64,000 nucleotides of DNA from an uncultured virus (IMG/VR IMGVR_UViG_3300032320_002770). Lineage: Duplodnaviria > Heunggongvirae > Uroviricota > Caudoviricetes. The notes beneath the pieces are model-generated. The model ran no database searches, had not been told where the DNA came from, and was given only the letters and a program-made list of their open reading frames with translations. Where the stretch lies: IMG/VR virus record IMGVR_UViG_3300032320_002770; one strand, given 5' to 3'. A program made the position numbers and the translations under genes. This document shows positions 5,171-63,485 of this stretch, piece after piece (the stretch's first letter is position 1; every line of letters begins with the position of its first letter).

Positions 5171-5199
5171 ATGATATATTATATTTAATTAAACGTCAA
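5171..5199 (-). promoter_or_regulatory. sigma70-type promoter TTGACG-N17-TATCAT, 7 nt before ATG
   Basis: Read directly. Confidence 0.7.
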
Positions 5200-7768: not shown

Positions 7769-7979
7769 TTTCATCCATTTCTTCATTTATTTTATCAATT
7801 TGCTGATTAAAAACATCTAAACCGCTGGCTAAGATTTTCATTGATTTTCTATCCTTTAAAGAATAAAATACATCAGCTTTACCATTCTTTTTTCCCTTTT
7901 GAATTGTAATCAAAAGATATTCTGTATCCGAATTATCTAATTTCTGCAACATATCATAAATATCATCCATTGAAGCCAT
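7761..7979 (-). CDS. Small hypothetical protein in the polymerase cluster
   Basis: 72-aa ORF tightly coupled to both neighbours. Confidence 0.6.
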   Translation of the reverse strand: MASMDDIYDMLQKLDNSDTEYLLITIQKGKKNGKADVFYSLKDRKSMKILASGLDVFNQQIDKINEEMDEND

Positions 7980-19657: not shown

Positions 19658-20620
19658 TTATATTCTATTTAATGTAAGTTTCCATTTTTCATATATATAG
19701 TTTTTATTTATAGTTTTAATATTTAAATTTTTATTAAGTATTGAATGCATTTCTTGCATGGAATCAAAATATTCCGCTTGAATTGTACCATTATAAAAAT
19801 CACTATATTTTAACCATTCTTCATTTAAAAATAAATTTTTTTGTCTTTGAATTAAACTATTTGGGAAAACTATTTCAGAAAATATAGGAAAATTATTTTT
19901 AATTAATTCTAGTGCAAAATTTAAAGATGGAAATATTAATGGAACACCAGCTCTAGATTGTTCAAAAATTGACATGGTAGAAGTATTATATGGAAAATGC
20001 AGGATAGATTTATATTTATATAAATCATTCCAAGTATATTTACCTAAAGAATGTTGATGTATTAAATCTTCTATATTTAAATTTATTAAAAATTTACTAA
20101 ATAGTATGGTATTTTTATATTTTTTGTTATATTTAACATTTGTATATTCACACAAACTTGGTATCCATTCCCATTTATTATTTAAAAATTTTTCACAATA
20201 TTTTTGATCAAATTGATTGTTTGCGACTAGTATTAAATTGCTATTATTCTTTAATGAATCTTCAAGCCAAATTAACTTTTCGTAGGAAAAACATGGGTAT
20301 TCATATCTAGTGCTAGCAACAACAATGATTGGCTTTCTAAATCTTTCGAACAATTTTAAAAAAAAAATATGATGCGTGCATATGAAAGCGTCGTATTTAT
20401 CCAATTCTTCTTTATGAAATTCATAAAAATTATCAACCATTTTTTCATCTAAATTTTTCCAATTATTATAGTTTATAATTGGAGATTTACATTCTGGTAA
20501 ATTAAAAACCCATCTATGTCCTGATAAAGACCAAGTATCAACTTGATGTCCTAAGTTTTCGAATATATTTTTTATATCCGCTATGACAGATGTATGACAA
20601 TCTAAATTAAAAAACTTCAT
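19658..20620 (-). CDS. Putative glycosyltransferase (GT-B-like)
   Basis: HFPYNTSTMSIFEQSRAGVPLIFPS; glycan-gene context. Confidence 0.45.
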   Translation of the reverse strand: MKFFNLDCHTSVIADIKNIFENLGHQVDTWSLSGHRWVFNLPECKSPIINYNNWKNLDEKMVDNFYEFHKEELDKYDAFICTHHIFFLKLFERFRKPIIVVASTRYEYPCFSYEKLIWLEDSLKNNSNLILVANNQFDQKYCEKFLNNKWEWIPSLCEYTNVKYNKKYKNTILFSKFLINLNIEDLIHQHSLGKYTWNDLYKYKSILHFPYNTSTMSIFEQSRAGVPLIFPSLNFALELIKNNFPIFSEIVFPNSLIQRQKNLFLNEEWLKYSDFYNGTIQAEYFDSMQEMHSILNKNLNIKTINKNYIYEKWKLTLNRI

Positions 20621-21752
20621 TTCTTATATCAAATTCCACCATTTTTTTGATTAAATTATTGAATGAAGTATTTGGCTTCCATCCTAGATCGTTTCTTGCT
20701 TTATCAGATTTACCGCATAAAAGACTTACTTCTGCGGGTCTATAAAATTTAGAGTTTATTTGCATAAGTACTTTTTTGTCTTCTGATATATACATTGTAT
20801 GTTCTCCTTCGCCAATCCAATTTCCTTTTATCCCAGCTATAGCAAAAGCTTTTTCTACAAATTCTTTAATTGTATGAGTTTCATTAGAAGAGAATACGTA
20901 ATCTGCAGGAGATCCATTATAGTTTTTATTGTATTTATCTTGATTTAACATCATCCAAATGCCTTCTACGAAATCTTCGGCATCACTCCAGTCTCTCTGT
21001 GCTTCTATATTTCCTAATTCTAAAGGTTCAAATTCTTGATTGTTTTTAGTTGCATGATAAATTCTAGCTACATTTTTTGTAATCTTTCTTGTAACAAACT
21101 CTTCGCCTCTTCTAGTTCCTTCGTGATTAAATAGCCATCCTTGAATTGCATAAAGATTATATGATTCTCTATAGACTTTTATGAGTTGTCTAGAAGCGCA
21201 TTTCGAAGCGCCGTATGGACTTCTTGGCCTAAGTGGATGATTTTCGTCTTGAGGACTATAAACAACATTCCCAAACTCTTCGCTAGAACCAGCTTGATAT
21301 AATCTACAAGATGGATTGTAAAGTCTAATTGCTTCTAATATATCTAATATTGCAGTAGAATTTGTCTCCCAAGTTTGACGAGCAAAATCCCAGCTGCTGG
21401 CTACGAAACTTTGAGCCGCAAAATTCATAAAATAATCTGGCTTTAGTTTTTCTATTGTTCTACTAATAGAATGTGCGTCAGTTAAATCAAAATTAATTAA
21501 GTGAAATCTATCGCTTTTAATTTGTCTAATATTTTCATGATTATAAACACTGAGTCTTCTTACTCCACCAAAAATTAAAAGATTAGTATTTTTAAGTAAA
21601 TACTCCACCATGAAGCTACCATCTTGGCCAGTAACCCCAGTAATTATACAAGTTTTCCTTCCATTGATTATTTTTGAAGCGTCTTCTATATTTAGAATAT
21701 TAGCTGTATCAATTTTTTTGCCGTGGTATGTGTCTTTAATATTTTGATTCAT
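20607..21752 (-). CDS. gmd: GDP-mannose 4,6-dehydratase
   Basis: ITGVTGQDGS, AAQSFV, PRSPYGASK, FNHE, FVTRKIT, YRPAEV. Confidence 0.93.
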   Translation of the reverse strand: MNQNIKDTYHGKKIDTANILNIEDASKIINGRKTCIITGVTGQDGSFMVEYLLKNTNLLIFGGVRRLSVYNHENIRQIKSDRFHLINFDLTDAHSISRTIEKLKPDYFMNFAAQSFVASSWDFARQTWETNSTAILDILEAIRLYNPSCRLYQAGSSEEFGNVVYSPQDENHPLRPRSPYGASKCASRQLIKVYRESYNLYAIQGWLFNHEGTRRGEEFVTRKITKNVARIYHATKNNQEFEPLELGNIEAQRDWSDAEDFVEGIWMMLNQDKYNKNYNGSPADYVFSSNETHTIKEFVEKAFAIAGIKGNWIGEGEHTMYISEDKKVLMQINSKFYRPAEVSLLCGKSDKARNDLGWKPNTSFNNLIKKMVEFDIRNEVF

Positions 21753-23499: not shown

Positions 23500-25734
23500 T
23501 TAGCTCCAAATCATTGATTGTGTATTTTTTATTACTGAAATTGGTTTAATATATGAAGATATGACTTTTGGTTGTTTTTCATTGATCCATCTATGCAAAA
23601 ATCCATCTGCATTACAATATAATGTAAAATTTTTTAAAACTTTTTCTAATCCATTTTTAGTTAATAAATAACCTTCTGCTCCATTAAACATTTGATCCCA
23701 TAAATGCCCAACCCTGCCATTGTCTACTTCATAATAATATTCATTTATTTTATTTTTTATATTATGCTGTTGTCTATCATTAAAGTAACATATATCAAAA
23801 CTATTTAAATCTGGAATATTCTCTAATAATAATTCAAACTGTTGTTTAGAAGTATTAATTTTTGCATCGTCTTCTAATATAAGCCATGCTTCATTTTCAT
23901 CTTTTTGTAAATTTCTCCATAAAAAGAAATGAGATAACATGCACGCTATTTCTCCATCAGATAATTTTCTATCAAATTTTTCTTCATTTCTTTTTTTATG
24001 AAAAGGTGTAAAATATTTTTGATTATGAAATTGTACGCCTATCATCTCTTTTCCAGTATGGTCTATATTTTTTGATATTGTATTTTTATTGACTCCATTA
24101 AATAAGACAAGATCTTTTATATTAGATTTTAATTCATCTATAAATACATTTCTTTCTTTAAAGTTTTCTGGATGTATGCAGTAAAAACCAATTTTTTTAT
24201 TTTGATTAATTTCTTCATGTGTTTCTTCTTTTTCTATAACTGCCCCATGGCTTTCATTTGTATTACCTCCTCTAAGTGGAGCTCTTAATATATTTGATAT
24301 TTTATTTTTATATTTATAAATTAATGGATGAAAAATTTCTCCATGTATTTCTTCCCAAGTCAATGGATAAAAATAATCTTTTCTAAAAACTATTTTATCT
24401 GTGCCATGCACTAGCGCTTGAGTTCCATGCTCTCCTCCCCAATGAATAACATCGCATCTTTCATCTCTGGTGTATTGTGCTGGATATTGTTTTAATTTAT
24501 CTAAACTAGCATCCATTATTAATTGAACATTATTATACCATTCTAAAGTTAGAGGAGTTTGTTTTTTAAAAATAAACGCTTCAACTCCAATTAAATCTTT
24601 TAAGTTATTATTTAAAAATCTATTTAAATTTTCATTAGGAATGCCCGCGCATGCCAACCATGGACGATATCCTACTGCATATAAATTATCGTCAGAATTT
24701 AGCAATTCAAAAGCTTGTTTCCAGCTATTTCTAGTTTCTTTTAAATCAGAATATCCTCCTCCATAAAAATGCATAAAATATGATCTAAGATAATCTGATT
24801 TATGTACAGAAGATAAATATCTAAATCCTTCGTGCAGAGGATGATCTTTTAATATATATTTATGTAAATTATGTAAAGTCACTAGTTCTACTTCTGCTTC
24901 TGAATATTTTATTATTGATTCTAAGCATTCTTTTCTTCTTGGATTCAATTCTTTTTTCTTTATCCAAAAACAGTAAATTTTATTCTTTCCTTTTTGTTCT
25001 ATTTTATTAATAAATTTACTTTGTAGAAAATTGTTCATATCTTTTTCCCATCCATCTGCTTCCAATGCGTTTATTTTAAAACTATTTTTGTTATATAAAT
25101 ATAATAAATTAGTTAAAATTGCTTGATCGTGTCTATTGTCTTTGAATTCTGGAAAATTTGGTAATCCGCATTGGTTAGGAGAATCTGTTATTATTTCTTT
25201 TTCATGAAAACACCATTTTATCCAATCAGTTATAAACTTTTTAGATAATTCAGATTTTTCCCAAAAACTCCAAGTAGCACTAAGCTGTTTTAAGTTCCAG
25301 CATTGTTCTTCGTCGCATCCCATGTAATGGAATACATCTCTTTTACAAAATTCTTTATGAGAGAATGGCCCTCTTGCTATTCCTATTCCTCTATTTTCTT
25401 TTTTTATTTTTTGCGCTAAAGGAATAATGCTTGATTTAATTTCAAATGGATAACAGCTTCTTCCTACATCATGGTATAAAATCATATCTCCATCATTAAT
25501 CTTTTTCAGACTATCATATATAATTAAAGATTTCCATGCCCAATATCCATATCCTCTTCTATGTTTTTGAAAAAAGTCTTTATATAATATTTCAAAATCT
25601 TTTGGCAAACAATCTTCTGTGTAAAGAAAAACATCTTTGATTCCAATTCCCTTATACTTATTAAGATGTTGATAAAGATTTTTTTCGTAATCTTTATCTT
25701 TAGATGTATAAAAAAGAGTTAAATAAACATTCAT
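23500..25734 (-). CDS. Three-domain glycosyltransferase fusion (N-terminal GT-A-like, GT32-like, GT25)
   Basis: GYWAWKS...RHDQAIL; HKSDYLR..YGGGYSD; GEIACMLSH...ILEDDA. Confidence 0.75.
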   Translation of the reverse strand: MNVYLTLFYTSKDKDYEKNLYQHLNKYKGIGIKDVFLYTEDCLPKDFEILYKDFFQKHRRGYGYWAWKSLIIYDSLKKINDGDMILYHDVGRSCYPFEIKSSIIPLAQKIKKENRGIGIARGPFSHKEFCKRDVFHYMGCDEEQCWNLKQLSATWSFWEKSELSKKFITDWIKWCFHEKEIITDSPNQCGLPNFPEFKDNRHDQAILTNLLYLYNKNSFKINALEADGWEKDMNNFLQSKFINKIEQKGKNKIYCFWIKKKELNPRRKECLESIIKYSEAEVELVTLHNLHKYILKDHPLHEGFRYLSSVHKSDYLRSYFMHFYGGGYSDLKETRNSWKQAFELLNSDDNLYAVGYRPWLACAGIPNENLNRFLNNNLKDLIGVEAFIFKKQTPLTLEWYNNVQLIMDASLDKLKQYPAQYTRDERCDVIHWGGEHGTQALVHGTDKIVFRKDYFYPLTWEEIHGEIFHPLIYKYKNKISNILRAPLRGGNTNESHGAVIEKEETHEEINQNKKIGFYCIHPENFKERNVFIDELKSNIKDLVLFNGVNKNTISKNIDHTGKEMIGVQFHNQKYFTPFHKKRNEEKFDRKLSDGEIACMLSHFFLWRNLQKDENEAWLILEDDAKINTSKQQFELLLENIPDLNSFDICYFNDRQQHNIKNKINEYYYEVDNGRVGHLWDQMFNGAEGYLLTKNGLEKVLKNFTLYCNADGFLHRWINEKQPKVISSYIKPISVIKNTQSMIWS

Positions 25735-28595: not shown

Positions 28596-29549
28596 ATGAA
28601 AAATGAAAATATAGTACTCTTAGCTCATTGGAATGGTAGATTTGGAAATAGATTACATCAATATATATATGGATGTTATTATCAAAAAATAAATGGCCAC
28701 AAATTTTATTTGCCTAGCGCTTGGGAGGGAAATGTTTTATTTAAAAATCAATATCATAAATTAGTAGACGATGATCTTTTGAGGCTTCAATTAAATCAAT
28801 CACAAAAAGTTCTTGATAATATTTATTTCAGAACATATGCTCTTAAAAATTTCTCTAAAGATATGGTTAGAATTATGGTAGAAGAAAAAGATAAAAATCC
28901 ATATGAAAAAAAATCAAATCATATATTTTTCGATAATGTTTGTGCTTATAATCAAAAAATATTTGATCCTATGGAATTATCAGAAATCAAAAAAATATTT
29001 GAATTTTCTGATGAAATAAAAAATTTAGATGTTTATAAAATAAACGAAGACCGCCAAGGAACTTATGATATAGCTCATTTAAGAAGAGATGATATATCAA
29101 ATCCTCAATATAATTTAAATAATCACCAAGGTTATTCTGTAGTTTCTAAAGATTCATATTCAAAAGCATTCAAAAAATTTGAATTTAATGAAGATGAAAT
29201 TGAATGGGTTTCAGATGATTATACTGGTAAATGGCATAAAGATAGAATAAAAACATTTGTTGGTAAATGGAAATATCCAGTTGGATCAGAATTTATACCT
29301 AAAATGGGTTTTGATTGGTTAAATGATTTTTTAAAAATATATTTTGCTAGAAATATTTTTAGAGCAAATTCTTCTTTTAGTTGGTGGGCTGCGTGCTTAT
29401 CTCCAATTGCAAAAGTTTATAGTCCAATTATTAATAAACAAATTATTTATGGAAGAGATGCTTTAAAAGAAATAGATGTAGATTTTGTAGAAGGAAACGC
29501 TCCTCATTGGATGTATGACTGCGATAATATTTTAATAAAAAATAATTAA
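28596..29549 (+). CDS. GT11-like glycosyltransferase
   Basis: GRFGNRLHQY, HLRRDD, ANSSFSWWA. Confidence 0.75.
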   Translation: MKNENIVLLAHWNGRFGNRLHQYIYGCYYQKINGHKFYLPSAWEGNVLFKNQYHKLVDDDLLRLQLNQSQKVLDNIYFRTYALKNFSKDMVRIMVEEKDKNPYEKKSNHIFFDNVCAYNQKIFDPMELSEIKKIFEFSDEIKNLDVYKINEDRQGTYDIAHLRRDDISNPQYNLNNHQGYSVVSKDSYSKAFKKFEFNEDEIEWVSDDYTGKWHKDRIKTFVGKWKYPVGSEFIPKMGFDWLNDFLKIYFARNIFRANSSFSWWAACLSPIAKVYSPIINKQIIYGRDALKEIDVDFVEGNAPHWMYDCDNILIKNN

Positions 29550-49357: not shown

Positions 49358-50101
49358 TCACGGAAATATCGGATCTAAATTAATAATAGTATTTTCATAG
49401 TTTTGTATAATTTTGCATGCTCCCCACCCTTTATCTTTGTTAGCTATAAATTTGCCATTAATAATATTATCTTGACTGAGTTTTTTATTCTTTTCTCTCA
49501 TTTCAAACCAATCTTCTTTTAAATATCTATTTTTTATATAAAGATTATTTGCAACGACATATGAATCTAATGGATCAAGTATATATTCTAAATTAATTGA
49601 TTTTGCTCTATTGATTAAATCTGTATCTTGGTGCGAATGAGCCAAGAATTCTTCGTCATAACCGCCTAATTTATAGAAATTATTATTATTTAGAACTATC
49701 CTACCAAAAGACCCCGATTTGCCTTTCAAATGCATATGTAATATGCTTTGTTTGTTTTTATTAAAAGTTTTATCAATTTTATCTCTCATACCTAATAAGA
49801 AATTATCTACATCTAAATTAACTAATATCTCTCCACAAGCTAACCTATGAGCTATATTTTTTGATTTTGGACAATTGTACTCTTTAACATCTAAAACTTT
49901 AATGAATTTTAATTTATTTTGTAATATATATTTTTTAAAATATATTGTACCTAAAACAAAAATCATAGTATCATCTGGGCTGTTGTAATCAACGAGCACT
50001 AGCTCTTCGTCATCTTTCAAATTTTCTAGGTTATCTTTTAAAGTCAAAGCTAGTTGCCATAACCTACCATAGCATACAGTACAATAAGAAACCTTTTTCA
50101 T
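49358..50101 (-). CDS. GT2/GT7-like glycosyltransferase
   Basis: LVDYNSPD, NLDVDN, GGYDE...QDTDL. Confidence 0.8.
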   Translation of the reverse strand: MKKVSYCTVCYGRLWQLALTLKDNLENLKDDEELVLVDYNSPDDTMIFVLGTIYFKKYILQNKLKFIKVLDVKEYNCPKSKNIAHRLACGEILVNLDVDNFLLGMRDKIDKTFNKNKQSILHMHLKGKSGSFGRIVLNNNNFYKLGGYDEEFLAHSHQDTDLINRAKSINLEYILDPLDSYVVANNLYIKNRYLKEDWFEMREKNKKLSQDNIINGKFIANKDKGWGACKIIQNYENTIINLDPIFP

Positions 50102-50130
50102 TATAAGTATTATATTTTAAATGAATTTAT

Positions 50131-50159
50131 TTGACAAACATAAAAATATATTATACTAT
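50131..50159 (+). promoter_or_regulatory. sigma70-type promoter TTGACA-N17-TACTAT in front of the structured RNA / nrdA leader
   Basis: Read directly. Confidence 0.7.
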
Positions 50160-50165
50160 ATATAA

Positions 50166-50452
50166 ACATACCGCCCAATTAGCGGATAAGGTTTGTCGTA
50201 CTCCAAAAAACGATAAGTCTTATTAGTTCGAAACGTGGGCAACGCTATAGGAGCTTGCGACCCAGATAACCACTAGTAATAGTGGGAGTGTAGGTGTAAG
50301 GGCTAACACGCGATGGATGATCCTACCGACATCCGATAAGTGTTAGGAGCCGAAAGGCTTACAGACTCAATTGGGAAGTAGAACTAATAGGCTTTTACAA
50401 CTTTGTATAAAATACAGGGAAAGCTCCGCTTTGAAGAACTCATTGGGAAGTT
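50166..50452 (+). ncRNA. Candidate large structured RNA of unknown class
   Basis: GC-elevated non-coding island with at least 8 helices, GTAA and GAAA tetraloops, a long closing stem and candidate pseudoknots. Confidence 0.65.
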
Positions 50453-50584
50453 AATTTAAAAAACTTATATTAGTACACTGTTTATCTATATAAGTCAGAA
50501 ATGTTAATAAGATTTAATTATTTTCTTTTTTAAAATACAAAAATACTGTAACATTACTTACATCTCTAATAGAAAGAATTTGAA

Positions 50585-52834
50585 ATGATTAATGTAAAGA
50601 AAAGAAATAACACTACTGAAAAATTTAACATAGATAAAATTAATAAAGTAATAAACTGGGCAATCGAAGGATATTCTGGAGTAAGCCTCACAGATATTGA
50701 GATTAATGCTAAGATAAATATTACAGATGGCGTAAGCACGAAAGAAATACACAACCTATTGATTGAGAGTGCTGCAAATTTAATTTCTATTGAAAAACCA
50801 AACTATCAATTTGTTGCTGGTAGACTTCTAAATTATCAATTGAGAAAAGACGTTTGGAAAGGCAAACATGCCCCAAGACTTTTAGAGTTCTTAAAAGAAA
50901 GTATTAAAAATAAGATTTATGATGATAGTATTTTAAGTTACTATTCTGAGGATGAGATTAATAAGATTGGTGAATTTATTGATCATGAAAGAGATTATAT
51001 CTTTACTTACGCTGGAATTAAACAGCTTTGCGATAAATATTTAATCAAAAATAGAACTACTGGAAAAATTTATGAAACTCCACAATTTGCTTATGTATTG
51101 ATTGCAGCTTACGCATTCGCCAAATACCCAGTCGAAACAAGACTTAATTATGTAAGAAAATTTTATGATGCTGTAAGTAAGCATAAGATTAATTTACCAA
51201 CTCCAGTTATGGCAGGGCTTAGAACATCTAGTAGAAATTACGCTAGTTGCTGTTTAATAGGTGTTGATGATACTAGAGAGAGTATTACAGCTAGTGCTAC
51301 TGCTGTTAGTATGGCTACTGCTAATAGATGTGGAATCGGTATTGATGTAAGTAAAATCAGAGCAATAGGTTCTCCTATTAAAAATGGAGAAGTTGTTCAT
51401 ACTGGATTAATTCCATTCTTAAAGATTTATGAGAGTAGTGTTAAAGCATGGCAACAAAATGGATTAAGAGGTGGAAGTGCAACTTGTAATATTCAATGGT
51501 GGCATTATGAAATTGAAGATGTTGTAGTATTAAAAAATAATGCAGGAACAGACGATAATAGAGTTCGTAAACTTGATTATACAGTTGGAATGAGCAAACT
51601 ATTTTATGATAGAGTTTTAAAAGATGAAGACATTACTTTATTTAATAATTCAGAAGTTCCAGAACTTTATGAAGCTTGGGGAACTAAAGACTTTGATAAA
51701 GTATATAAAGAATGTGAATCTAAAAAATTAAAAATTAAAAAGAAAATATCTGCTCGTAAGTTATTCTCACTAATAATCAAGGAAAGAGTTGAAACTGGTA
51801 GAATTTATATATTAAATATTGATCACGCAAATAATCATGGAGCTTGGTTAGATAAAGTCACTATGAGTAATCTTTGCACTGAAGTTATCCATCCAACTAT
51901 TCCATTGAATGATTACAATGACAAGAATGGGGAAATTGGTATGTGTATTCTTTCGGCAGTAAATATGCTAGAGATTAAAAACTGGCAAGATCTTGAAAAG
52001 ACCTGCGATCTTATCGTAAGATTTCTTGATGAAATCATTGAACTTCAAGATTATTTTAATGTTGCTGCTGAAAATTTTGCTAAAAAACGCAGAAGTCTTG
52101 GAGTTGGAATTACCAACCTTGCAGCTTTTCTTGCTAAAAATGAATTAAAATATAGCTCCGATAAGTCATTATCAGTTATCGACGAATGGATGGAGCACTT
52201 TCAATATTACTTACTTAAGAGTAGTATTGAATTAGCTAAAGAAAAAGGCAAATGCGAAAAGTTTGATAGGACTAAATATTCTAAAGGTATATTACCAATT
52301 GATACTTATAAAGATAAAGTAGACGAGCTAGTTAAAAGAAAACTATCGCTTGACTGGGGAAAACTAAGAAAAGATATTAAAGAATTTGGATTAAGACATT
52401 CTACATTATCTTCTTGTATGCCCTGCGAAAGTAGCTCAGTAATTCAATGCTCAACAAATGGAGTAGAACCTATTCGTAGTCTTATCACTTATAAGACTAG
52501 TAAAATGGGTAAACTTCCAGTTATGGTTCCAGGAATTGGTAAATATGATGGTAACTATGAATTAGCTTATACTTTAAAAGATAATACTGGATTACTCAAA
52601 ATAAATGCTGTTATTCAAAAATATATTGATATGGCAATATCAACTAATGTATACTATAATTATAGTCATTATGAAAATAATGTTCTTCCAGATGCGAAAG
52701 TTATGAAAGAATTAATGTATGCATATAGTTTAGGATTAATTAGTCTGTATTATAATAATACAGATGATGGAGATAAAGAACAATCTATGACACAAAAGGA
52801 AGATGACTGCGCTAGTGGAGCCTGTAAACTATGA
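50585..52834 (+). CDS. nrdA: Class Ia ribonucleotide reductase alpha subunit with ATP cone
   Basis: VKKR ATP cone, PTP, SCC, SNLCTE, MPCESSS, SLYY, C-terminal CxxxxC. Confidence 0.97.
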   Translation: MINVKKRNNTTEKFNIDKINKVINWAIEGYSGVSLTDIEINAKINITDGVSTKEIHNLLIESAANLISIEKPNYQFVAGRLLNYQLRKDVWKGKHAPRLLEFLKESIKNKIYDDSILSYYSEDEINKIGEFIDHERDYIFTYAGIKQLCDKYLIKNRTTGKIYETPQFAYVLIAAYAFAKYPVETRLNYVRKFYDAVSKHKINLPTPVMAGLRTSSRNYASCCLIGVDDTRESITASATAVSMATANRCGIGIDVSKIRAIGSPIKNGEVVHTGLIPFLKIYESSVKAWQQNGLRGGSATCNIQWWHYEIEDVVVLKNNAGTDDNRVRKLDYTVGMSKLFYDRVLKDEDITLFNNSEVPELYEAWGTKDFDKVYKECESKKLKIKKKISARKLFSLIIKERVETGRIYILNIDHANNHGAWLDKVTMSNLCTEVIHPTIPLNDYNDKNGEIGMCILSAVNMLEIKNWQDLEKTCDLIVRFLDEIIELQDYFNVAAENFAKKRRSLGVGITNLAAFLAKNELKYSSDKSLSVIDEWMEHFQYYLLKSSIELAKEKGKCEKFDRTKYSKGILPIDTYKDKVDELVKRKLSLDWGKLRKDIKEFGLRHSTLSSCMPCESSSVIQCSTNGVEPIRSLITYKTSKMGKLPVMVPGIGKYDGNYELAYTLKDNTGLLKINAVIQKYIDMAISTNVYYNYSHYENNVLPDAKVMKELMYAYSLGLISLYYNNTDDGDKEQSMTQKEDDCASGACKL

Positions 52835-53817
52835 TAAAAAATCATAGTATAAATAAAAAATGCATTATTGTCACTACAATAAATAAACCTACAGATCAAA
52901 TAATTGCATATAGTAAAAAAAATGATTGGAATCTGATCATTGTTGGTGATAAAAAAACAGATCCAAATTTATATAAACAAATTAATTGCATTTATTTAGG
53001 TTTAGATGAGCAAGATAATCTATTCCCATCACTATCGAAACTTATTCCTAGGAATTCATATGCAAGAAAAAATTTAGGATACGCTTATGCATTTGTAAAT
53101 GAATATGATTTAATTTATGATACAGATGATGATAATTATTCTGATATTAAGGATTTCGTCAATGAAAGTAACGATCAAGAAGTTAGTACAAACTGTAATT
53201 TTGTAAATATTTATAAACTTTATACAGATTTTAAAGTATGGCCCCGTGGACTTCCTCTCAGATATATAGATACAAAATTAATTATTAAAAATAAAAAATA
53301 TACTTGTCCAGTTATACAAGGATTAGTAGATGGTGATCCTGATGTCGATGCTATTTTCAGGTTAACTAATAGTTTATGTAAGGACAAATTTACAGAATTT
53401 AATAAAAATAATAAAAAAACTTATGCTTTAAAACCATATGTATTTTGTCCATTTAATACACAAAATACCTTCTGGACGCAAAGAGATCTATTTCATCTTA
53501 TGTATTTGCCATCAACAGTTAGTATGAGATCTACAGACATATTAAGAGGTTACATAACTCAACATCAATTATGGGCTAAATCTTTAAATATTAAATTTAC
53601 TAATAGTAATGCAATTCAAACTAGAAACGAACATTGCCTAATTAAAGATTTGAATGACGAATTAGAGACATTTCAATATACTGAACAGATCATTGAATGG
53701 CTTATTAATAATAAAAAAGCTAATCTTTCTGAGACTTATGAATGGTTAAAATCCGCTAATATAGTTTCTAAAACAGAATTGAAAATCCTTAAAGAATGGA
53801 ATCGTATATTTATATGA
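52831..53817 (+). CDS. STELLO/DUF288-like glycosyltransferase
   Basis: IVTTIN, VGDKKT, SYARKNLGY.YA, YDTDDDN, WPRG.P, QGL.DGDPDVDAI.RL, PFNTQNT. Confidence 0.8.
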   Translation: MIKNHSINKKCIIVTTINKPTDQIIAYSKKNDWNLIIVGDKKTDPNLYKQINCIYLGLDEQDNLFPSLSKLIPRNSYARKNLGYAYAFVNEYDLIYDTDDDNYSDIKDFVNESNDQEVSTNCNFVNIYKLYTDFKVWPRGLPLRYIDTKLIIKNKKYTCPVIQGLVDGDPDVDAIFRLTNSLCKDKFTEFNKNNKKTYALKPYVFCPFNTQNTFWTQRDLFHLMYLPSTVSMRSTDILRGYITQHQLWAKSLNIKFTNSNAIQTRNEHCLIKDLNDELETFQYTEQIIEWLINNKKANLSETYEWLKSANIVSKTELKILKEWNRIFI

Positions 53818-55730
53818 TTTTTACTATAGACACAAATGTTTTAAATAAAAAAGAATTATATAATAATCTAATTTATCCATTTTTGGTTTTAAAAGATTTG
53901 AATGGAAATTATAATTCTGTTTTATTTTGTGTTGAAGCAGATTTTAATATTTTAATTTATCAATTCGATAATACAAAAAATGATAAATCACCATCATTAA
54001 TTAGTAAGATGTCTATTTCTGAATTAGGAGTAATATTACCATTGTTAATAAATTGCGAAATTAAAGATTTAAAAGAGCATATGATTTTTAGCATTAAAGA
54101 CGTTAACGGCTGGCAGAAAGAAGCTATTGATAAGATTATTGATAACATCACTCTCGCTGAAAAAGATAAAGATCTTCCATTAATGCATTTTAATAAAGAC
54201 CCATTTAATGGGTCTGTAAATTTAATATTTAATAGATATATTTATAAAATGTGTGATTTGAATTTACTGCTATCATTCATAGAGAAAACTTTATCAATTT
54301 CAGAATTCAACCAAGTCAAAAGCTTACTCAAAGCTTTTGAAAATAGATTAGGACCAGATTTTAATTGTCAATTTTTTTATATGCAGAAGTATTATATATT
54401 ACGTGAGTTGATATGTCTCGTTACAGGCAAACATATAACAATTGACCCATTTACATTAAACTATATTTATTCAGAATGTACGACGTTATGTAAAATAGGA
54501 AATTATCATTCTCGATTGATCAAATATAAATCTAATTCTGGTAATTATTTTATTGAGCGTAGAGGGCCTGGTTGGATAGATATAACCAGTTCTATTATAT
54601 TATCGAATGGTTTAATAATTGATCCAAGAAGTTTTTCTAGACATGACGCAAAGCGTCCTGATCAAGCTGCGGTAAGTTCAGAAGAAGAAAAAGAGATTAA
54701 AAATCTATTTGCTTTTAATGTATCGCACAGTCAAGAAGAAAAAGAAAATATTCAATATCTAATGATTGATGTTGACTATACTAATTTAGGTCATACATTA
54801 TGGAATGAAGTATCTGGATATATTGAATTTATATTAATATGCAAAGATTCTAATTTAATTAATAAAAAAACTGTACCAGTACTACCTCAATCTATTCCTA
54901 CTCTTTTTTCTAAGATTGGAGTACGTTCATCTTTTTTTCAATATATAAAAAAGGCTCTGTCTACTCAAACTATTAAAAACTCAAGTACAGATATTATTAC
55001 AGATTATATAAATTCAATCAATGATAGCCAAATTATAATAAATAAAATTTTTATAAAAAATCAACCCCTTTCTTTTCGTTTTCCTAAAATATCTAATTTA
55101 TTGTCAAATACAATACGCAATGATTTTACTCATGTAAAAAATAAAAAAATACATATCTATAAAAATATAAGATTTCATAATAAATCGCAATTGAATATAG
55201 TTGAATGCCTATCTCAACTATTCAAAGATTTAGATAATCAAGAAAACGTAAAATTAAAACCATTTAATATAGAAATTGATCTCGAATTTAACTCACAAGC
55301 TGTATACGGACCTTCATTTCAAGCTCGTGATTTAGTTAACAATACTCTTTCTGAAATTAAAACTTTATGTGATAAGTACATGGTGAAACTTAATCTACAT
55401 GATTCTTATGAAATACCAGATTTAATGCAATTAGTTTCAGAGTCTGATATATGTATAGTTGCTATAGGAAGTGGAGCTATTTTACCTACTTGGATTTTTA
55501 ATAAAAATACCGTAATGCATGCAAATATTGAGCATTATTCACAATTAGAGTGGTGGAATCAAGTAGGTGGTATAGATAATAATAATCAATTCATAATACC
55601 ACAAAATGCAATTAATAATTTTTCCTCTGGAATTTTATTATATGATAACTATAAAATTGATATTAATGCATACTCGAGCACAGTTATAAGTGCTTTAAAA
55701 AAATGTCTTGAAAAATGCGTGTATATATAG
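53814..55730 (+). CDS. Large hypothetical protein, C-terminus weakly GT-B-like
   Basis: NLGHTLWNE and DICIVAIGSG segments; no firm family. Confidence 0.55.
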   Translation: MIFTIDTNVLNKKELYNNLIYPFLVLKDLNGNYNSVLFCVEADFNILIYQFDNTKNDKSPSLISKMSISELGVILPLLINCEIKDLKEHMIFSIKDVNGWQKEAIDKIIDNITLAEKDKDLPLMHFNKDPFNGSVNLIFNRYIYKMCDLNLLLSFIEKTLSISEFNQVKSLLKAFENRLGPDFNCQFFYMQKYYILRELICLVTGKHITIDPFTLNYIYSECTTLCKIGNYHSRLIKYKSNSGNYFIERRGPGWIDITSSIILSNGLIIDPRSFSRHDAKRPDQAAVSSEEEKEIKNLFAFNVSHSQEEKENIQYLMIDVDYTNLGHTLWNEVSGYIEFILICKDSNLINKKTVPVLPQSIPTLFSKIGVRSSFFQYIKKALSTQTIKNSSTDIITDYINSINDSQIIINKIFIKNQPLSFRFPKISNLLSNTIRNDFTHVKNKKIHIYKNIRFHNKSQLNIVECLSQLFKDLDNQENVKLKPFNIEIDLEFNSQAVYGPSFQARDLVNNTLSEIKTLCDKYMVKLNLHDSYEIPDLMQLVSESDICIVAIGSGAILPTWIFNKNTVMHANIEHYSQLEWWNQVGGIDNNNQFIIPQNAINNFSSGILLYDNYKIDINAYSSTVISALKKCLEKCVYI

Positions 55731-55749
55731 TATAGTATATTCATTAAAA

Positions 55750-56814
55750 ATGAAAACAGTTTTAAACTTTAAAAATATAGATACCACAAAGCAACCATTA
55801 TTTCTCGGAGAAGATTTGAATCTTCAAAGATATGATCGGTTTAAGTATCCAATATTTTTTGAACTATTTAAAAAACAAAATGAAAATTTTTGGTGGCCTC
55901 ATGAAATAGCTTTAGGAAAAGATCGTAGCGACTACAATAACTTAACAGACACAGAAAGATTTGTTTTTGATAGTAATTTAAGATTCCAAACTCTTGGAGA
56001 TAGCATGCTTTCTAGAAGTATTCATTCTCTCAAAGATTATGTAAGTAATCCAGAACTTGAGATTTGCATGAATACTTGGGCACAATTTGAAGGTATTCAT
56101 AGTTACTCTTACTCTTACCTCTTGAATAATGTCTATCCAGATGCAACTGAATTCTTTGATAGTATAATGGAAGATAAAGAAATTACAAGTCGCGCGGAGT
56201 TAATTAGAAATAATTTTGATAAAATTCTTGGTGATGATGATAAGAAAGATCCTAAACAAAAGATTTTTGATGCGATTCTTTCTATTAATGTAATGGAAGG
56301 TCTTGTATTTTATGTTTCTTTCGCTTGTTCTTTCTATTTTGGATATCGTGGCAAGATGGAAGGTAACTCTAAAATTATAAAATTCATTCAACGTGACGAA
56401 GCTCTTCATTTTGCAGTAAGTCAAAATCTACTTAAAATATTAAGAGATGAAGATAAAGAAGGTTTCACAAGTATAGTTAAGAAAAGTGAAGACAAAATCT
56501 ATGCTTTCTACGAACAAGCCGCCAAGAATGAAAGTGAATGGTCTCAATATCTCTTCAGTAATGGTAGTTTACTTGGATTAAATGCAGAGGTTTTAGATGG
56601 TTATTCTAAATGGCTGTGTGACAGCAGATTAAGAAGTTTAGGTTATAAGAAGATATTCAACCAAAAAGACAATCCTATTGGTGGATGGCATGACAGCTAT
56701 TTGGATAGTAGTAAAGTACAAGTTGCTCCTCAAGAAACTGAGATTTCTAGCTATAAAGTCGGCGCAAGGAAGACCGATATACAAGATGAAGATTTCGGCG
56801 ATTTAAAACTCTAA
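55750..56814 (+). CDS. nrdB: Class Ia ribonucleotide reductase beta subunit
   Basis: FWWPHE, QTLGDS, EGIHSYSY, EGLVFYVSF, RDEALH, APQETEISSY. Confidence 0.97.
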   Translation: MKTVLNFKNIDTTKQPLFLGEDLNLQRYDRFKYPIFFELFKKQNENFWWPHEIALGKDRSDYNNLTDTERFVFDSNLRFQTLGDSMLSRSIHSLKDYVSNPELEICMNTWAQFEGIHSYSYSYLLNNVYPDATEFFDSIMEDKEITSRAELIRNNFDKILGDDDKKDPKQKIFDAILSINVMEGLVFYVSFACSFYFGYRGKMEGNSKIIKFIQRDEALHFAVSQNLLKILRDEDKEGFTSIVKKSEDKIYAFYEQAAKNESEWSQYLFSNGSLLGLNAEVLDGYSKWLCDSRLRSLGYKKIFNQKDNPIGGWHDSYLDSSKVQVAPQETEISSYKVGARKTDIQDEDFGDLKL

Positions 56815-57176: not shown

Positions 57177-57523
57177 TCTTGCCCAGCTAAGGGATGCTTC
57201 TTTCCTTTACGTTTTTTACTCCAGTCTTTGAAGTATTTATTTTTAACTGGATCTTTTCCATAAACCTTCTCTCTTTTTTCAGACAACTCTTTGCTTCTAT
57301 CCCATAGGTCACCCATAGTACCTTTTTTTCTACCAGTAAATTCAGAAAATTCTCTAGAAGAACACTCGGCTTTTAATGTACCATCTGTATTTAATTGAGG
57401 AGAAGTAAAAATTCTATCCCATTTAACTCCAGAATCATCAGTATATTCATGTTTATCATGAACGCTTTGAATTACTGATATAACTTTACCAGTTTGAGGG
57501 TGTTGATACAAATACTCAGGCAT
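57173..57523 (-). CDS. FmdB-like protein (Cys ligands absent)
   Basis: MPEYLYQ...G...VIQS...RIFT. Confidence 0.55.
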   Translation of the reverse strand: MPEYLYQHPQTGKVISVIQSVHDKHEYTDDSGVKWDRIFTSPQLNTDGTLKAECSSREFSEFTGRKKGTMGDLWDRSKELSEKREKVYGKDPVKNKYFKDWSKKRKGKKHPLAGQD

Positions 57524-58598
57524 AATGTTTTAAAATATTATCAACTAATTTGTCTACAGAAAATTCATCTTGGAGTTTTAATCCATTTTTATTGATTTTA
57601 TTTGATTCTACTTTTTTAATAGCTTTATCGCATCCATCAATAAAATCATCATCGTTAAATGTATAAATATTACCTTGATTGAATTTTTGTCCTCTATGGA
57701 AAAACATATTATCATATGCTTCTATTTTACCAGATGGTTCTACTAAAACTGAATTATCTTTATTGGCCCAAGATTTATAGGAATGAGCATTTAATATAAC
57801 AGCTTGTTTTCCTAAAGCAACAGAATGAAATTCTGGTAATCCCCATCCTTCTCCACCACTCATGCCAATAATAATATCAGCACTATTTAAATAATCATTA
57901 TATAGAGCATTGTTTTCCATGAAATTTAAAAATGATATGTTAAAATATTCCTTACCTTCCAGTACAGAATTAATTAATTGCTGCTGATCTTGAGGTTTTA
58001 AAAAAGGATTGTATATCGCGCATTGTAGAAAATACTTTCTATTGTTACCATATTTCTTAAGCCAACTTTGAATAACTTTTTTATGATTTTTTCTTTTTTC
58101 TAATTTTCCAACTAGATTAAATGTTATACGATCTTCAATGTACTTTTTATTAGTATTAGAAAAATTATATTTATCAAAAGCCAACGGAACATACTCGACA
58201 TTAGAGCAACCTGCATTTTTGAAAATTTCACAAGTATATGGAGAAGAAAATAACACTTTATGATTATTTTTTACAATATTTATTTCTGTAGGAGTAGGTT
58301 GGTCTAACTCATAAAACGAAAATAATACTTGCTCTTTAGCAAGTGATTCTAAAGACCCATTTAAATGCCAAAGTTTAAATATTCTATTATTTCTAGAATA
58401 TTTAGCGTCATTATCTTGTAATGAATTATTTATCCAATCAATAAATTCTTTTTCAAGACTTTGAGTAGAGAAATCTATTTGGCTTCCTATTGGAAATAGA
58501 AGTATATCACTCTTTCTTCTAAAGAGTTCTTTTAAAATTAGCGTAGAAGTTTGCCCAAAAGATACTGAGTTAATGGGCAAATTCAAGCATATACTCAC
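57516..58598 (-). CDS. GT4-family glycosyltransferase
   Basis: VGKLEKRKN, SGGEGWGLPEF. Confidence 0.85.
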   Translation of the reverse strand: MSICLNLPINSVSFGQTSTLILKELFRRKSDILLFPIGSQIDFSTQSLEKEFIDWINNSLQDNDAKYSRNNRIFKLWHLNGSLESLAKEQVLFSFYELDQPTPTEINIVKNNHKVLFSSPYTCEIFKNAGCSNVEYVPLAFDKYNFSNTNKKYIEDRITFNLVGKLEKRKNHKKVIQSWLKKYGNNRKYFLQCAIYNPFLKPQDQQQLINSVLEGKEYFNISFLNFMENNALYNDYLNSADIIIGMSGGEGWGLPEFHSVALGKQAVILNAHSYKSWANKDNSVLVEPSGKIEAYDNMFFHRGQKFNQGNIYTFNDDDFIDGCDKAIKKVESNKINKNGLKLQDEFSVDKLVDNILKHYA

Positions 58599-62285: not shown

Positions 62286-62506
62286 GCGAAATACAAGAAT
62301 CATATAATGATATCCCTCTTTATATAAGAGGGACAGAAAGATCGCCTATTCATAGACTTGCCCCAAAATTAGGAAGAAACTATCATTGTCCTTTCGAAGG
62401 AAAGAAATTTAAAAAATGCTGCGGATTAGATGGGTCAAATTATTGTAAAAAATTGTTAAATGAATTTGTAGAGAAAAATTTACCTAAAAATGATCAAAGC
62501 AGTTGA
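62282..62506 (+). CDS. SEC-C motif protein
   Basis: KLGRNYHCPFEGKKFKKCCG. Confidence 0.7.
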   Translation: MSEIQESYNDIPLYIRGTERSPIHRLAPKLGRNYHCPFEGKKFKKCCGLDGSNYCKKLLNEFVEKNLPKNDQSS

Positions 62507-63485
62507 TATTATTTTTGGTTTAGCATGGGGAGATGAGGGCAAAGGTAAAATAAGTAATACTATTAGTAAAAATTATGATATTGTTTGTAGGTGGAATGGT
62601 GGACCCAATGCAGGTCATACAGTTTATATTAACGATAAAAAATATAAAACTCATATTATTCCTTGTGGAGTTTTTCAAAATAAACCTAGCATTATTGGCC
62701 CAAACTGCGTTATCAATGTTGATAAATTTTTTGATGAAATAGAATATTTAGAAAAAGAAGGTTTTGATACTTCTTTAATTAAAGTTAGCCCTAAAGCTCA
62801 TATTATTACAGAAAAGCATATTCAATATGATCTTAAATTTTTACAACCAAGACTTGGTACAACTGGCCAAGGGATTGCTCCTTGTTATGCAGATAAAGCT
62901 TTAAGAGTAGGAAAACTTTCTAAAGATTATTTGGATAAAAAATATCTTTGGGATGGCCGACTTTATGGAAATATACTTTGCGAAGGTGCTCAAAGTTTTT
63001 GGTTAGACTTAAACTATGGTGATTATCCTTATGTTACTAGCAGTGAAACATTACCATATTCGGCTTGTTCGTTAGGATTTTCACCTAAAAAAATCAGAGA
63101 TATTATTGGCATTGCTAAAATTTATGACACCAAAAGTGGAGTAGATCCTCTTTTTCCAGATTCACTATGGAAAGACGAAAATCTTAATAAGATTATAGAC
63201 CTCGGTAAAGAATTCGGGTCAACCACGGGTCGCAAAAGAATTGTTAATTGGTTGAGATTAAATCACTTGAAGCAAGCTATAAAAATTTCTGGTACGAACA
63301 AAGTTATTATCAATAAATGCGACATTCTTCAAGAAATAAACATTTATAAGTTAATTTTAGATAATGATAAAGATGGGCCAAATTTTATTCAGTTTAATGA
63401 TTTTAGCAATATGAAAGAATATATAACAAATGAATTGAAAGAGTATTGCGAAGTTATTTTTTCTGGAAATAAATCTTTCATTTAA
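62490..63485 (+). CDS. purA: Adenylosuccinate synthetase (short form)
   Basis: WGDEGKG, GGPNAGHT, GTTGQGI, EGAQ, YPYVTSS, EFGSTTGR.R, NKCD. Confidence 0.95.
   Translation: MIKAVDIIFGLAWGDEGKGKISNTISKNYDIVCRWNGGPNAGHTVYINDKKYKTHIIPCGVFQNKPSIIGPNCVINVDKFFDEIEYLEKEGFDTSLIKVSPKAHIITEKHIQYDLKFLQPRLGTTGQGIAPCYADKALRVGKLSKDYLDKKYLWDGRLYGNILCEGAQSFWLDLNYGDYPYVTSSETLPYSACSLGFSPKKIRDIIGIAKIYDTKSGVDPLFPDSLWKDENLNKIIDLGKEFGSTTGRKRIVNWLRLNHLKQAIKISGTNKVIINKCDILQEINIYKLILDNDKDGPNFIQFNDFSNMKEYITNELKEYCEVIFSGNKSFI

What the first reader, a model, noticed from the sequence alone, without database searches (positions are those of the whole stretch)
50166..50452. Candidate undescribed structured, pseudoknotted RNA with its own promoter upstream of nrdA
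Seen: the longest intergenic gap holds a GC-richer island starting just after TTGACA-N17-TACTAT. Helices found by eye: CCGC/GCGG (50171-85); TGTCGT/ACGATA (50194-215); a ~14-bp long-range stem 50215-29/50381-94. Inside that stem lie the TGGG..CCCA hairpin (50236-64), CCACTA-GTAA-TAGTGG (50270-85, GNRA loop), GAGT/ACTC (50286-89/50365-68), TGTAAG/CTTACA (50295-300/50358-63), CTAACAC/GTGTTAG (50303-09/50340-46), GGATG/CATCC (50315-19/50330-34) and CC-GAAA-GG (50350-57). The loop CCTAC (50322-26) can pair with GTAGG (50290-94), giving a pseudoknot. This nested architecture is unlikely to arise by chance in such an AT-rich genome, and I cannot match it to tRNA, tmRNA, RNase P, SRP, group I/II intron or cobalamin riboswitch consensus. 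Inference: a phage ncRNA, ribozyme or riboswitch-like nrdA leader.
Basis: partly seen in the sequence, partly recalled or inferred. Interest (0 to 1): 0.85.

Follow-up and report, generated by a model that had tools for sequence, protein, structure and literature searches.

The report
New double-pseudoknot phage RNA gene
This gap holds a real, separately promoted gene for an intricately folded RNA of about 290 bases that is found only in one group of uncultured freshwater phages; it is not a switch for the neighbouring nrdA gene, and its job is still unknown.

Summary
Window 50166-50453 (+) is a GC-rich island that folds far better than shuffles (z -4.26). It matches no Rfam 15 family. It is conserved, with many compensatory changes, in related phage contigs.

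The GAGT/ACTC helix is not. I add:
- a second long-range pseudoknot (50249-55 with 50422-28);
- two single-stranded direct repeats (50370-79 and 50442-51) that differ between subtypes but are identical to each other within every RNA.

A covariance model finds the RNA in 47 of 80 nrdA loci. In 26 it lies before nrdA. In 21 it lies on the opposite strand beyond nrdB, usually facing away from a phage tmRNA gene and with varying downstream neighbours. So it is a stand-alone RNA gene, not an nrdA leader or riboswitch.

My best guess is that it acts in trans and that a rigid core presents two identical purine-rich arms to one partner. That partner was not found.

This window links it to the nrdA-side form.

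The parts
50131..50159 (+). Sigma-70-type promoter of the RNA (-35 TTGACA 50131-36, 17-bp spacer, -10 TACTAT 50154-59)
   Evidence: 10 of 12 matches. An exact TTGACA-N17-TAnnnT lies 4-9 nt before the RNA in 48 of 53 homologue rows.
50166..50453 (+). The RNA gene, about 288 nt (type 1 of the family)
   Evidence: Model R1 matches 50166-50453 at 347.9 bits, the only hit in the window. The conserved block ends at about 50452 in alignments A1/A2. The true 5' and 3' ends are inferred, not measured.
50171..50185 (+). H1 hairpin (50171-74 with 50182-85)
   Evidence: helix 1. Other clades carry TCGC/GCGA and GTATTA/TAATAC.
50189..50194 (+). 5' strand of a possible closing helix Pa (pairs with 50435-40); weak evidence
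   Evidence: RNAalifold. In one search, helix 2, 4 of 5 pairs never vary and 1 changes on both sides in one sequence. The register is not kept in types 2/3 (by eye).
50195..50214 (+). H2 hairpin (50195-99 with 50210-14)
   Evidence: helix 3: 3 of 5 pairs change on both sides.
50215..50229 (+). H3 long-range stem, 5' strand (pairs with 50381-94)
   Evidence: helix 4: 8 of 14 pairs change on both sides; 99.1% paired.
50236..50264 (+). H4 hairpin (50236-39/50261-64 and 50243-45/50257-59, with a conserved CAA internal loop). Its loop carries the 5' strand of pseudoknot 2 (50249-55).
   Evidence: helices 5 and 6. Across subtypes the pairs are GGG/CCC, UGG/CCA, UAG/CUA and CGC/GCG, CGU/ACG, UGU/ACA.
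50270..50285 (+). H5 hairpin with a GNRA loop (GTAA); expanded to a long arm in types 2/3
   Evidence: helix 8: 4 of 6 pairs change on both sides.
50290..50294 (+). Pseudoknot 1, 5' strand GTAGG (pairs with CCTAC 50322-26 in the loop of H9)
   Evidence: Strand pairs seen: GUAGG/CCUAC, GUAGC/GCUAC, GUGGC/GCCAC, GUGGA/UCCAC, GUAGU/ACUAC. 97.6% of 245 cells are paired.
50295..50363 (+). Inner domain. H7 (50295-99/50359-63) encloses H8 (50303-09/50340-46), H9 (50315-19/50330-34) and H10 GCC-GAAA-GGC (50349-51/50356-58).
   Evidence: helices 10-13.
50370..50379 (+). Repeat 1, single-stranded ATTGGGAAGT (related flank from 50365)
   Evidence: An exact 10-12-nt direct repeat is present in all 53 rows (49 distinct), 65-75 nt apart. 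15 of 2120 shuffles reach 10 nt.
50381..50394 (+). H3, 3' strand
   Evidence: helix 4.
50401..50419 (+). H11 hairpin (50401-04 with 50416-19; longer in this sequence)
   Evidence: helix 14: only one-sided C/U changes opposite G; 85% paired. This part of the alignment is gappy.
50422..50428 (+). Pseudoknot 2, 3' strand AGCTCCG (pairs with 50249-55)
   Evidence: helix 7: 3 of 7 pairs change on both sides. There are 13 different complementary strand pairs of 6-8 bp in 51 of 53 rows.
50435..50440 (+). 3' strand of the possible closing helix Pa
   Evidence: weak.
50442..50451 (+). Repeat 2, ATTGGGAAGT, at the 3' edge of the conserved RNA
50473..50554 (+). nrdA-proximal conserved boxes (GTACAC 50473-78, TGTTAATAA 50502-10, TTTTCTTTT 50521-29, CTGTAACAT 50546-54). 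They are not part of the RNA and are probably nrdA's own control region.
   Evidence: Seen by eye in loci with and without the RNA. The function is inferred.
50585..52834 (+). nrdA (class I ribonucleotide reductase alpha; ATP-cone + lgN + lgC)

Best explanation
Shown: 50166-50453 (+) is a member (type 1) of a phage-specific family of RNAs of about 280-320 nt. Each has its own TTGACA-N17-TAnnnT promoter, starts near ACAUA(G), and occurs once per phage record. The fold has a 14-bp long-range stem (H3) that encloses several hairpins and an inner domain. Two pseudoknots lock it: PK1 joins the strand before H7 to the loop of H9, and PK2 joins the loop of H4 to a strand beyond H3. Two unpaired purine-rich stretches of 10-12 nt, one just before the 3' strand of H3 and one at the 3' edge, are identical to each other in every RNA. 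Between subtypes they differ: AUUGGGAAGU, AAAGAAAAGU, AGGGAAAAAGU. The gene moves about the genome. It lies before nrdA in types 1, 2 and 4, and back to back with the phage tmRNA gene in type 3.

Inferred: it is a stand-alone stable RNA made early by host RNA polymerase, and it acts in trans. It is not a cis regulator of nrdA. I put this at about 0.85.

Most likely mechanism, at about 0.35: the pseudoknotted core is a rigid scaffold, and the two identical single-stranded arms are the working parts. They engage two copies or two sites of one partner, either a pyrimidine-rich nucleic acid or a dimeric RNA-binding protein. A change in one arm is then tolerated only if the other arm changes in the same way.
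For: - Real structure: z -4.26; 27 of 76 pairs with compensatory change against 1-7 in slid controls; PK1 and PK2 covary across five subtypes.
- Own gene: the promoter is conserved in 48 of 53 rows. No ORF of 40 aa or more lies on the + strand in 50102-50584.
- Not tied to nrdA: of 47 full-length model hits, 26 are upstream of nrdA and 21 are on the opposite strand beyond nrdB. Downstream neighbours vary: convergent 171-aa or 109-aa ORFs, or a co-directional 320-aa ORF.
- One copy elsewhere in 4 of 5 whole records that lack it near nrdA.
- Stable-RNA neighbourhood: a divergent tmRNA lies within 1.2 kb in 50 of 62 type-2/3 loci (Rfam 93-104 bits), and tRNA genes sit beside the tmRNA in L221.
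- Arms: exact repeats in 53 of 53 rows (49 distinct) against 15 of 2120 shuffles. Changes are parallel inside type 1: the two bases after GGGAA are GT, TT, AA, AT or GA, the same in both arms, and T>C or G>A occurs in both arms.
- No complementary partner inside the RNA is shared by all subtypes; the best column is hit in 27 of 53 rows, type 1 only. This fits arms that are unpaired and face outwards.
Against:
- No partner was found. The complement of the arm is absent from the 64-kb window at up to 1 mismatch and not enriched at 2 mismatches (70 found, 76.6 expected). It is not enriched in five relatives' records. It is not in the phage tmRNA in a form that covaries, nor in its flanks.
- In this window no terminator separates the RNA from nrdA. 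Read-through into nrdA, and some leader effect in types 1, 2 and 4, cannot be excluded.
- Identity of two short repeats 70 nt apart could be kept partly by template switching at the DNA level rather than by selection on RNA function.
- The tmRNA link is by position only. tmRNA sequence does not change with arm type.
Confidence: 0.6

Rival explanations
1. It is a cis-acting leader or riboswitch of nrdA. The RNA senses a nucleotide, cobalamin or another ligand and controls nrdA transcription or translation.
For: In this window and in 26 of 47 model hits the RNA lies on the nrdA strand upstream of nrdA. It is about 130 nt before the ATG in 25 of these, and further upstream in L060 with an ORF between. 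No terminator-like site lies between them. The size and pseudoknots are in the range of large riboswitch aptamers.
Against: 21 of 47 hits are on the other strand beyond nrdB, with no gene downstream to regulate. There is no expression platform: no terminator and no alternative pairing of the H3 strand with downstream sequence, z near 0 in most of 51 sequences. nrdA keeps its own conserved upstream boxes without the RNA. No Rfam riboswitch matches at E<=10.
Confidence: 0.05
2. The two identical stretches are processing sites. One sequence-specific endonuclease (host or phage) cuts at both. This sets the 3' end and splits the RNA into two pieces that stay joined through H3 and PK2, giving a two-piece stable RNA.
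For: Repeat 2 marks the 3' edge of conservation. Most loci show no clear terminator after it (by eye). Both repeats follow a related flank GAnnUC-A. H3 and PK2 bridge the two would-be pieces.
Against: A protein site would not be expected to differ so much between subtypes while staying identical within an RNA. No nuclease gene is linked to the RNA. There are no end-mapping data.
Confidence: 0.12
3. It is a ribozyme. It either processes itself at the repeats or acts on phage tRNA/tmRNA precursors.
For: The fold is as complex as known ribozymes, with two pseudoknots and strictly conserved junction nucleotides. In type 3 it sits in the tmRNA/tRNA gene neighbourhood.
Against: No ribozyme or RNase P family matches, even at E<=10 or E<=5. 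No internal guide covaries with the repeats. The helix order does not map onto RNase P (my comparison from memory, not a tool result).
Confidence: 0.1
4. It is an origin-of-replication or primer transcript (R-loop type). In the window it sits at the point where gene orientation and GC skew switch.
For: Cumulative GC skew has its minimum at about 50150-50250 and gene orientation flips there. A very AT-rich stretch (0.16 GC) follows the RNA.
Against: In type-3 phages the RNA sits alone on the minus strand between plus-strand genes, not at a strand switch. An elaborate fold kept by compensation is not needed for an R-loop primer.
Confidence: 0.04
5. It is a template RNA for rolling-circle reverse transcription, like the DRT2-type defence ncRNAs (recalled). 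The direct repeats would allow template jumping.
For: Identical direct repeats flanking a unit of about 70 nt are what template jumping needs.
Against: No reverse-transcriptase domain (PF00078) in 0 of 4 phage records of 64-87% completeness. Unit length is 65-75 nt and not held to multiples of three. The unit contains strands needed for H3 and PK2.
Confidence: 0.02

Closest known systems
GOLLD and ROOL RNAs (large ornate RNAs of phages and prophages; in Rfam)
   Same: Phage-borne, promoter-driven, highly structured, of unknown function, and often beside tRNA-type genes (that association is recalled). Here the type-3 form sits beside tmRNA and tRNA genes.
   Different: No sequence or structure match to either model in Rfam 15. 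This RNA is about half the size or less. It has two identical single-stranded arms, which are not described for those RNAs (recalled).
Phage T4 stable RNAs C and D (species 1 and 2) in the tRNA gene cluster (recalled, no call)
   Same: Phage-encoded stable RNAs of unknown function, placed among tRNA-type genes.
   Different: The T4 RNAs are shorter (recalled). They were not compared here because no sequence was at hand.
Riboswitches that precede ribonucleotide reductase genes: cobalamin (RF00174) and 2'-deoxyguanosine (purine class) (the association is recalled)
   Same: Position upstream of nrdA in this window; size and pseudoknot comparable to cobalamin aptamers.
   Different: No model match at E<=10. 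No expression platform. The family is not tied to nrd genes.
The type-3 form of the same RNA noted earlier in this scan (e1-5737889)
   Same: The same family. It shares 28 of 95 short words with L216's copy.
   Different: This window carries type 1: different arm sequence, short GNRA hairpins in place of long arms, and a position before nrdA instead of beside the tmRNA.

Membership tests
Any Rfam 15 family (riboswitches, ribozymes, RNase P, tmRNA, SRP, 6S, GOLLD, ROOL, group I/II introns) | A covariance-model match at the family's gathering score | tested here: not met
   0 matches in the whole window. At E<=10 in 50050-50650 there is only a chance hit at E=8.4. Four other subtypes give no match over the RNA at E<=5.
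Riboswitch or cis-regulatory leader of nrdA | A constant position in the 5' UTR of the regulated gene across homologues | tested here: not met
   26 of 47 hits lie upstream of nrdA. 21 of 47 lie on the opposite strand beyond nrdB with varying neighbours.
Riboswitch or cis-regulatory leader of nrdA | An expression platform: a terminator, or alternative pairing that competes with an aptamer helix | tested here: not met
   No + strand terminator-like site in 49900-50700. Pairing of the H3 5' strand with the 60 nt downstream is no better than shuffles in most of 51 sequences.
Riboswitch or cis-regulatory leader of nrdA | Ligand binding | not testable with these tools
   Needs in-line probing or ITC.
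tRNA / tmRNA | Detected by ARAGORN or RF00023 | tested here: not met
   0 genes in the window. The tmRNA of relatives is a separate neighbouring gene.
Retron or DRT-type template ncRNA | A reverse transcriptase gene in the same element | tested here: not met
   PF00078 found in 0 of 4 related phage records, with positive controls ringing. The records are 64-87% complete.
CRISPR mini-array or repeat-mimic RNA | Repeats of about 28-37 nt separated by a spacer of about 30-40 nt (definition recalled) | tested here: not met
   The exact repeats are 10-12 nt, 65-75 nt apart, and the sequence between them is part of the conserved fold.
Stand-alone bacterial-type ncRNA gene | Its own conserved promoter and no coding frame | tested here: met
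   Promoter in 48 of 53 rows. No + strand ORF of 40 aa or more in the gap.
Stand-alone bacterial-type ncRNA gene | A discrete transcript with defined ends | not testable with these tools

The most novel reading that the evidence does not exclude
The two arms are a programmable address. They base-pair with a host or rival nucleic acid that differs between host strains, for example a repeated host RNA. The phage RNA would then be a structured guide, decoy or sponge, and its specificity would be reset by changing both arms together. A still bolder variant, also not excluded, is that the arms are kept identical because they pair with each other in parallel through like-with-like purine pairs. That would be a motif not known in natural RNAs.
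Probability: 0.15. Interest if true: 0.9.

Novelty: categorically new. Interest (0 to 1): 0.78.

Why it matters
RNAs of this size with two covariation-proven pseudoknots are rare, and most known ones turned out to be ribozymes, riboswitches or cores of RNA-protein machines. This family is one gene per phage and has a near-consensus early promoter. The searches here found roughly a hundred contigs carrying it, a tally not de-duplicated across calls. It sits beside the phage's own tmRNA in many members. That points to a role in translation, RNA processing or host takeover that has not been described.

The two arms that evolve in step give a direct experimental handle: change one, then both. If they turn out to be a re-programmable recognition element, this would be a new kind of phage RNA tool.

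The result also corrects the annotation. It should not be filed as an nrdA riboswitch.

"Categorically new" refers to the RNA family having no detectable known relative. Its mechanism is not shown.

Tried and rejected
- Rfam at gathering and relaxed thresholds gave nothing for the RNA. ARAGORN gave nothing.
- blastn against 50,697 phage records found no match. No whole genome is held for the window.
- One search used a pattern with one N too many. Its 25 loci (L081-L105) gave no real match to the model: only one 41-nt partial hit in L093, E 0.79. That scan was wasted.
- The bacterial genome scan with a core pattern gave 41 loci. None matches the model, so no host or prophage copy was found by this narrow test.
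Of the 80 loci with DNA, 4 are true members.
- Internal partner for the arms: no alignment column is complementary in all subtypes; the best is hit in 27 of 53 rows. Within type 1, the columns that track the variable arm bases are clade markers or invariant U.
- Arm complement in the phage tmRNA or its flanks: nothing that covaries.
- Arm complement in the window: none at up to 1 mismatch, and 70 matches against 76.6 expected at 2 mismatches. TTGGGAA alone gives 13 matches against 12.3 expected.
- Arm motif in five relatives' records: counts are like the reversed-pattern control.
- Switch model: no downstream sequence competes for the H3 strand.
- Reverse-transcription model: no RT gene, and repeat spacing is not a multiple of three.
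- RNase P-like reading: the PK2 3' strand of type 3b loosely resembles the conserved P4 strand of RNase P, which I recalled from memory. The helix order does not fit and no model hit supports it, so I dropped it.
- RNAalifold's alternative pairing of CCCAG (50261-65) with the TTGGG of repeat 1 is rejected in favour of the local H4 stem. H4 has a true G-C to A-U change and holds in all subtypes.
- Literature: two full-text searches listed nothing that describes this RNA. In PMC7029224 I read matched passages only. Its authors report finding no riboswitches in pelagimyophages, and this phage is not shown to be one of those.

Full report
**1. What is in the window**

The gap between a minus-strand glycosyltransferase-like gene (49358-50101) and plus-strand nrdA (50585-52834; ATP-cone, all-alpha and barrel domains) is 483 nt long. 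Inside it, GC content rises to 0.43-0.50 at 50200-50399, against 0.16-0.23 on both sides. TTGACA-N17-TACTAT lies at 50131-50159. The plus strand of 50160-50460 folds to -86.9 kcal/mol, z -4.26, and none of 100 dinucleotide shuffles does as well. The minus strand gives z -1.94. No plus-strand ORF of 40 aa or more lies in the gap. Rfam 15 finds nothing in the whole window at gathering score, and only a chance hit (E 8.4) in the region at E<=10. ARAGORN finds no tRNA or tmRNA.

**2. Relatives and covariation**

No whole genome is held for the window, and no cultured phage record matches the RNA by blastn. Using NrdA as bait, I fetched 80 related loci from IMG/VR, with 78-97% protein identity. blastn found the element in 20 of them. 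A core pattern found 29 loci, nine of them on further contigs.

I aligned 24 distinct type-1 sequences (A2) and tested a structure that I wrote from the alignment:
- 97.0% of 1816 cells are paired.
- 27 of 76 pairs change on both sides, against 1-7 when partners are slid by 1-3 columns.
- 0 of 500 shuffles reach the observed covariation score.

Nine of eleven stand outright. TGTAAG/CTTACA stands only in part. GAGT/ACTC has no support: 0 compensatory changes and 8 of 96 cells unpaired, and it is absent in other subtypes.

The alignment also shows a second pseudoknot. The loop of the 50236-64 hairpin (50249-55) pairs with 50422-28, and 3 of 7 pairs change on both sides within type 1.

**3. The family is larger, and it is not an nrdA element**

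A covariance model (R1) built from A2 found full-length matches in 47 of the 80 nrdA loci:

| Type | Loci | Position |
|---|---|---|
| 1 | 20 | upstream of nrdA, same strand |
| 2 | 5 | upstream of nrdA, same strand |
| 4 | 1 | upstream of nrdA, same strand |
| 3a | 13 | minus strand, beyond nrdA-nrdB |
| 3b | 8 | minus strand, beyond nrdA-nrdB |

- The type-3 copies lie 1.5-2.4 kb beyond nrdA. The 354-aa ORF after nrdA is the small RNR subunit.
- There the RNA converges on a 171-aa or 109-aa ORF. In another arrangement it precedes a 320-aa membrane-like ORF.
- Of five whole records with no copy near nrdA, four hold exactly one copy elsewhere.
- The window holds one copy.
- In phages without the RNA before nrdA, that slot holds a 116-aa ORF or nothing. 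The sequence boxes just before nrdA (GTACAC, TGTTAATAA, TTTTCTTTT, CTGTAACAT) are there in all cases (by eye).
- No terminator-like site follows the RNA in the window. No downstream sequence competes for the H3 strand.

Together these rule out a dedicated nrdA riboswitch or leader as the family's function. Read-through from the RNA promoter into nrdA in this particular phage is not excluded.

**4. Cross-subtype support**

Aligning 53 model hits (49 distinct rows; A3) shows the same architecture in all subtypes, with whole helices replaced.
- PK1 was not part of the model, so it is an unbiased test. It is 97.6% paired. 24 cells change on both sides, against 0-9 in slid controls. The strand pairs are GUAGG/CCUAC, GUAGC/GCUAC, GUGGC/GCCAC, GUGGA/UCCAC and GUAGU/ACUAC. 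47 rows have 5 of 5 pairs and 6 rows have 4 of 5.
- PK2 appears as 13 different complementary strand pairs of 6-8 bp in 51 of 53 rows. My pattern failed on the other two rows.
- An exact TTGACA-N17-TAnnnT lies 4-9 nt before the model start in 48 of 53 rows.

**5. The two arms**

Every one of the 53 rows carries an exact direct repeat of 10-12 nt, 65-75 nt apart. Only 15 of 2120 mononucleotide shuffles reach 10 nt. In the window the repeats are 50370-79 and 50442-51.

The repeat differs between subtypes:
- type 1: AUUGGGAAGU
- types 2 and 3: AAAGAAAAGU
- type 4: AGGGAAAAAGU

The flank changes in parallel too (..UCA against ..UUA in type 3b). Inside type 1, the two bases after GGGAA are GT, TT, AA, AT or GA in different clades, and always the same in both arms. 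A T>C change (L128) and a G>A change (L112) each occur in both arms.

This is covariation by identity, not by complementarity. I looked for the third strand that would explain it and found none:
- not inside the RNA
- not in the phage tmRNA or its flanks
- not in the window
- not in five relatives' records

**6. Context**

A relaxed Rfam scan of other subtypes found nothing for the RNA, but it did find a one-piece tmRNA gene next to it at 93-104 bits. With an nhmmer profile of six phage tmRNAs, 50 of 62 type-2/3 loci have the tmRNA within 1.2 kb, always divergent. Of the 12 without it, five are type 2 (before nrdA) and three are cut by contig ends.

Type-1 and type-2 phages carry the tmRNA 10-17 kb away: 4 of 4 records searched, with a fifth not held. 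tRNA-Ser and tRNA-Asn lie beside the tmRNA in L221. A more distant clade (NrdA about 78% identical) shows neither the RNA (0 of 5 records) nor a tmRNA above cut-off (0 of 5). Those records are only 12-57% complete.

The phage group has a DnaE-like polymerase with under 33% identity to any record in the phage collection. No reverse transcriptase was found in 4 records.

**7. Reading**

- Shown: a real, conserved, doubly pseudoknotted RNA with its own promoter; one copy per record; mobile within the genome; two arms kept identical.
- Inferred at about 0.85: a stand-alone, trans-acting stable RNA made by host polymerase.
- Inferred at about 0.35: the core is a scaffold, and the two identical unpaired arms bind two copies or sites of one partner.

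The rivals are processing sites for a nuclease, a ribozyme, an origin transcript, a template for reverse transcription, and an nrdA leader. Each is listed with its evidence. None is better supported.

**8. Known or new**

No Rfam family matches. Two full-text searches listed nothing that describes this RNA. The passages I read in PMC7029224 report that a riboswitch scan of pelagimyophages found nothing, and this phage is not shown to be one of those.

It lists the same two pseudoknots and the two stretches kept identical. I reached the same features independently before reading it, and here I tie that form to the nrdA-side form.

In kind, the closest known things are the orphan ornate phage RNAs GOLLD and ROOL, and the T4 stable RNAs. 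It is not a member of those families.

Noticed in passing
L216:816-1204 (-), L059:7679-8096 (+), L220-L223: Relatives of this phage encode a one-piece tmRNA (RF00023, 93-112 bits) with an unusually long 24-residue tag that ARAGORN reads as AKTAKYKGHISAR... The 64-kb window itself holds no tmRNA or tRNA.
   Followed up: partly
window 52831-55730: nrdA (50585-52834) and nrdB (55708-56814) are separated here by a STELLO-like glycosyltransferase gene and a 644-aa ORF with no family. In relatives nrdB follows nrdA directly (L031 5254-6318).
   Followed up: partly
window 50473-50554: Boxes GTACAC, TGTTAATAA, TTTTCTTTT and CTGTAACAT before the nrdA start are conserved in all related loci, with or without the RNA. 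They may be nrdA's own promoter or operator. They were not tested against NrdR-box or promoter models.
   Followed up: no
window 62490-63485 (+): An adenylosuccinate-synthetase-family gene (PF00709, E 3.6e-79; PHROG 1211). Whether it is PurA-like or the PurZ type linked to 2-aminoadenine genomes was not examined.
   Followed up: no
window 5189-7786 (-): The replicative polymerase is DnaE-like, with under 33% identity to any of 50,697 phage records. The phage lineage has no close cultured relative.
   Followed up: no
L008:2556-2909 (+) and about 40 of 80 related loci: A conserved 115-117-aa ORF (starts MPLYTYIHPETEE) fills the slot just before nrdA in phages whose RNA gene lies elsewhere. It has no Pfam or PHROG family.
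   Followed up: partly
L217:1865-2074 (+), L216:1234-1443 (-): A conserved 69-aa ORF (starts MEIIKNKARW) lies between the RNA and the tmRNA in type-3a phages but is absent in type 3b, where the two RNA genes are about 120 nt apart. It has no Pfam family.
   Followed up: partly
L060:1455-1738 and 1778-2893: In one type-1 relative a 371-aa ORF is inserted between the RNA and nrdA. This again shows that the RNA and nrdA are separable.
   Followed up: no
window 709-50101 and 57516-58598: Many glycosyltransferase and nucleotide-sugar genes lie on the minus-strand block (PHROG hits at 2697-4607, 20607-21752, 23500-25734, 28596-29549, 57516-58598). This suggests a large surface- or DNA-sugar-modification region.
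   Followed up: no
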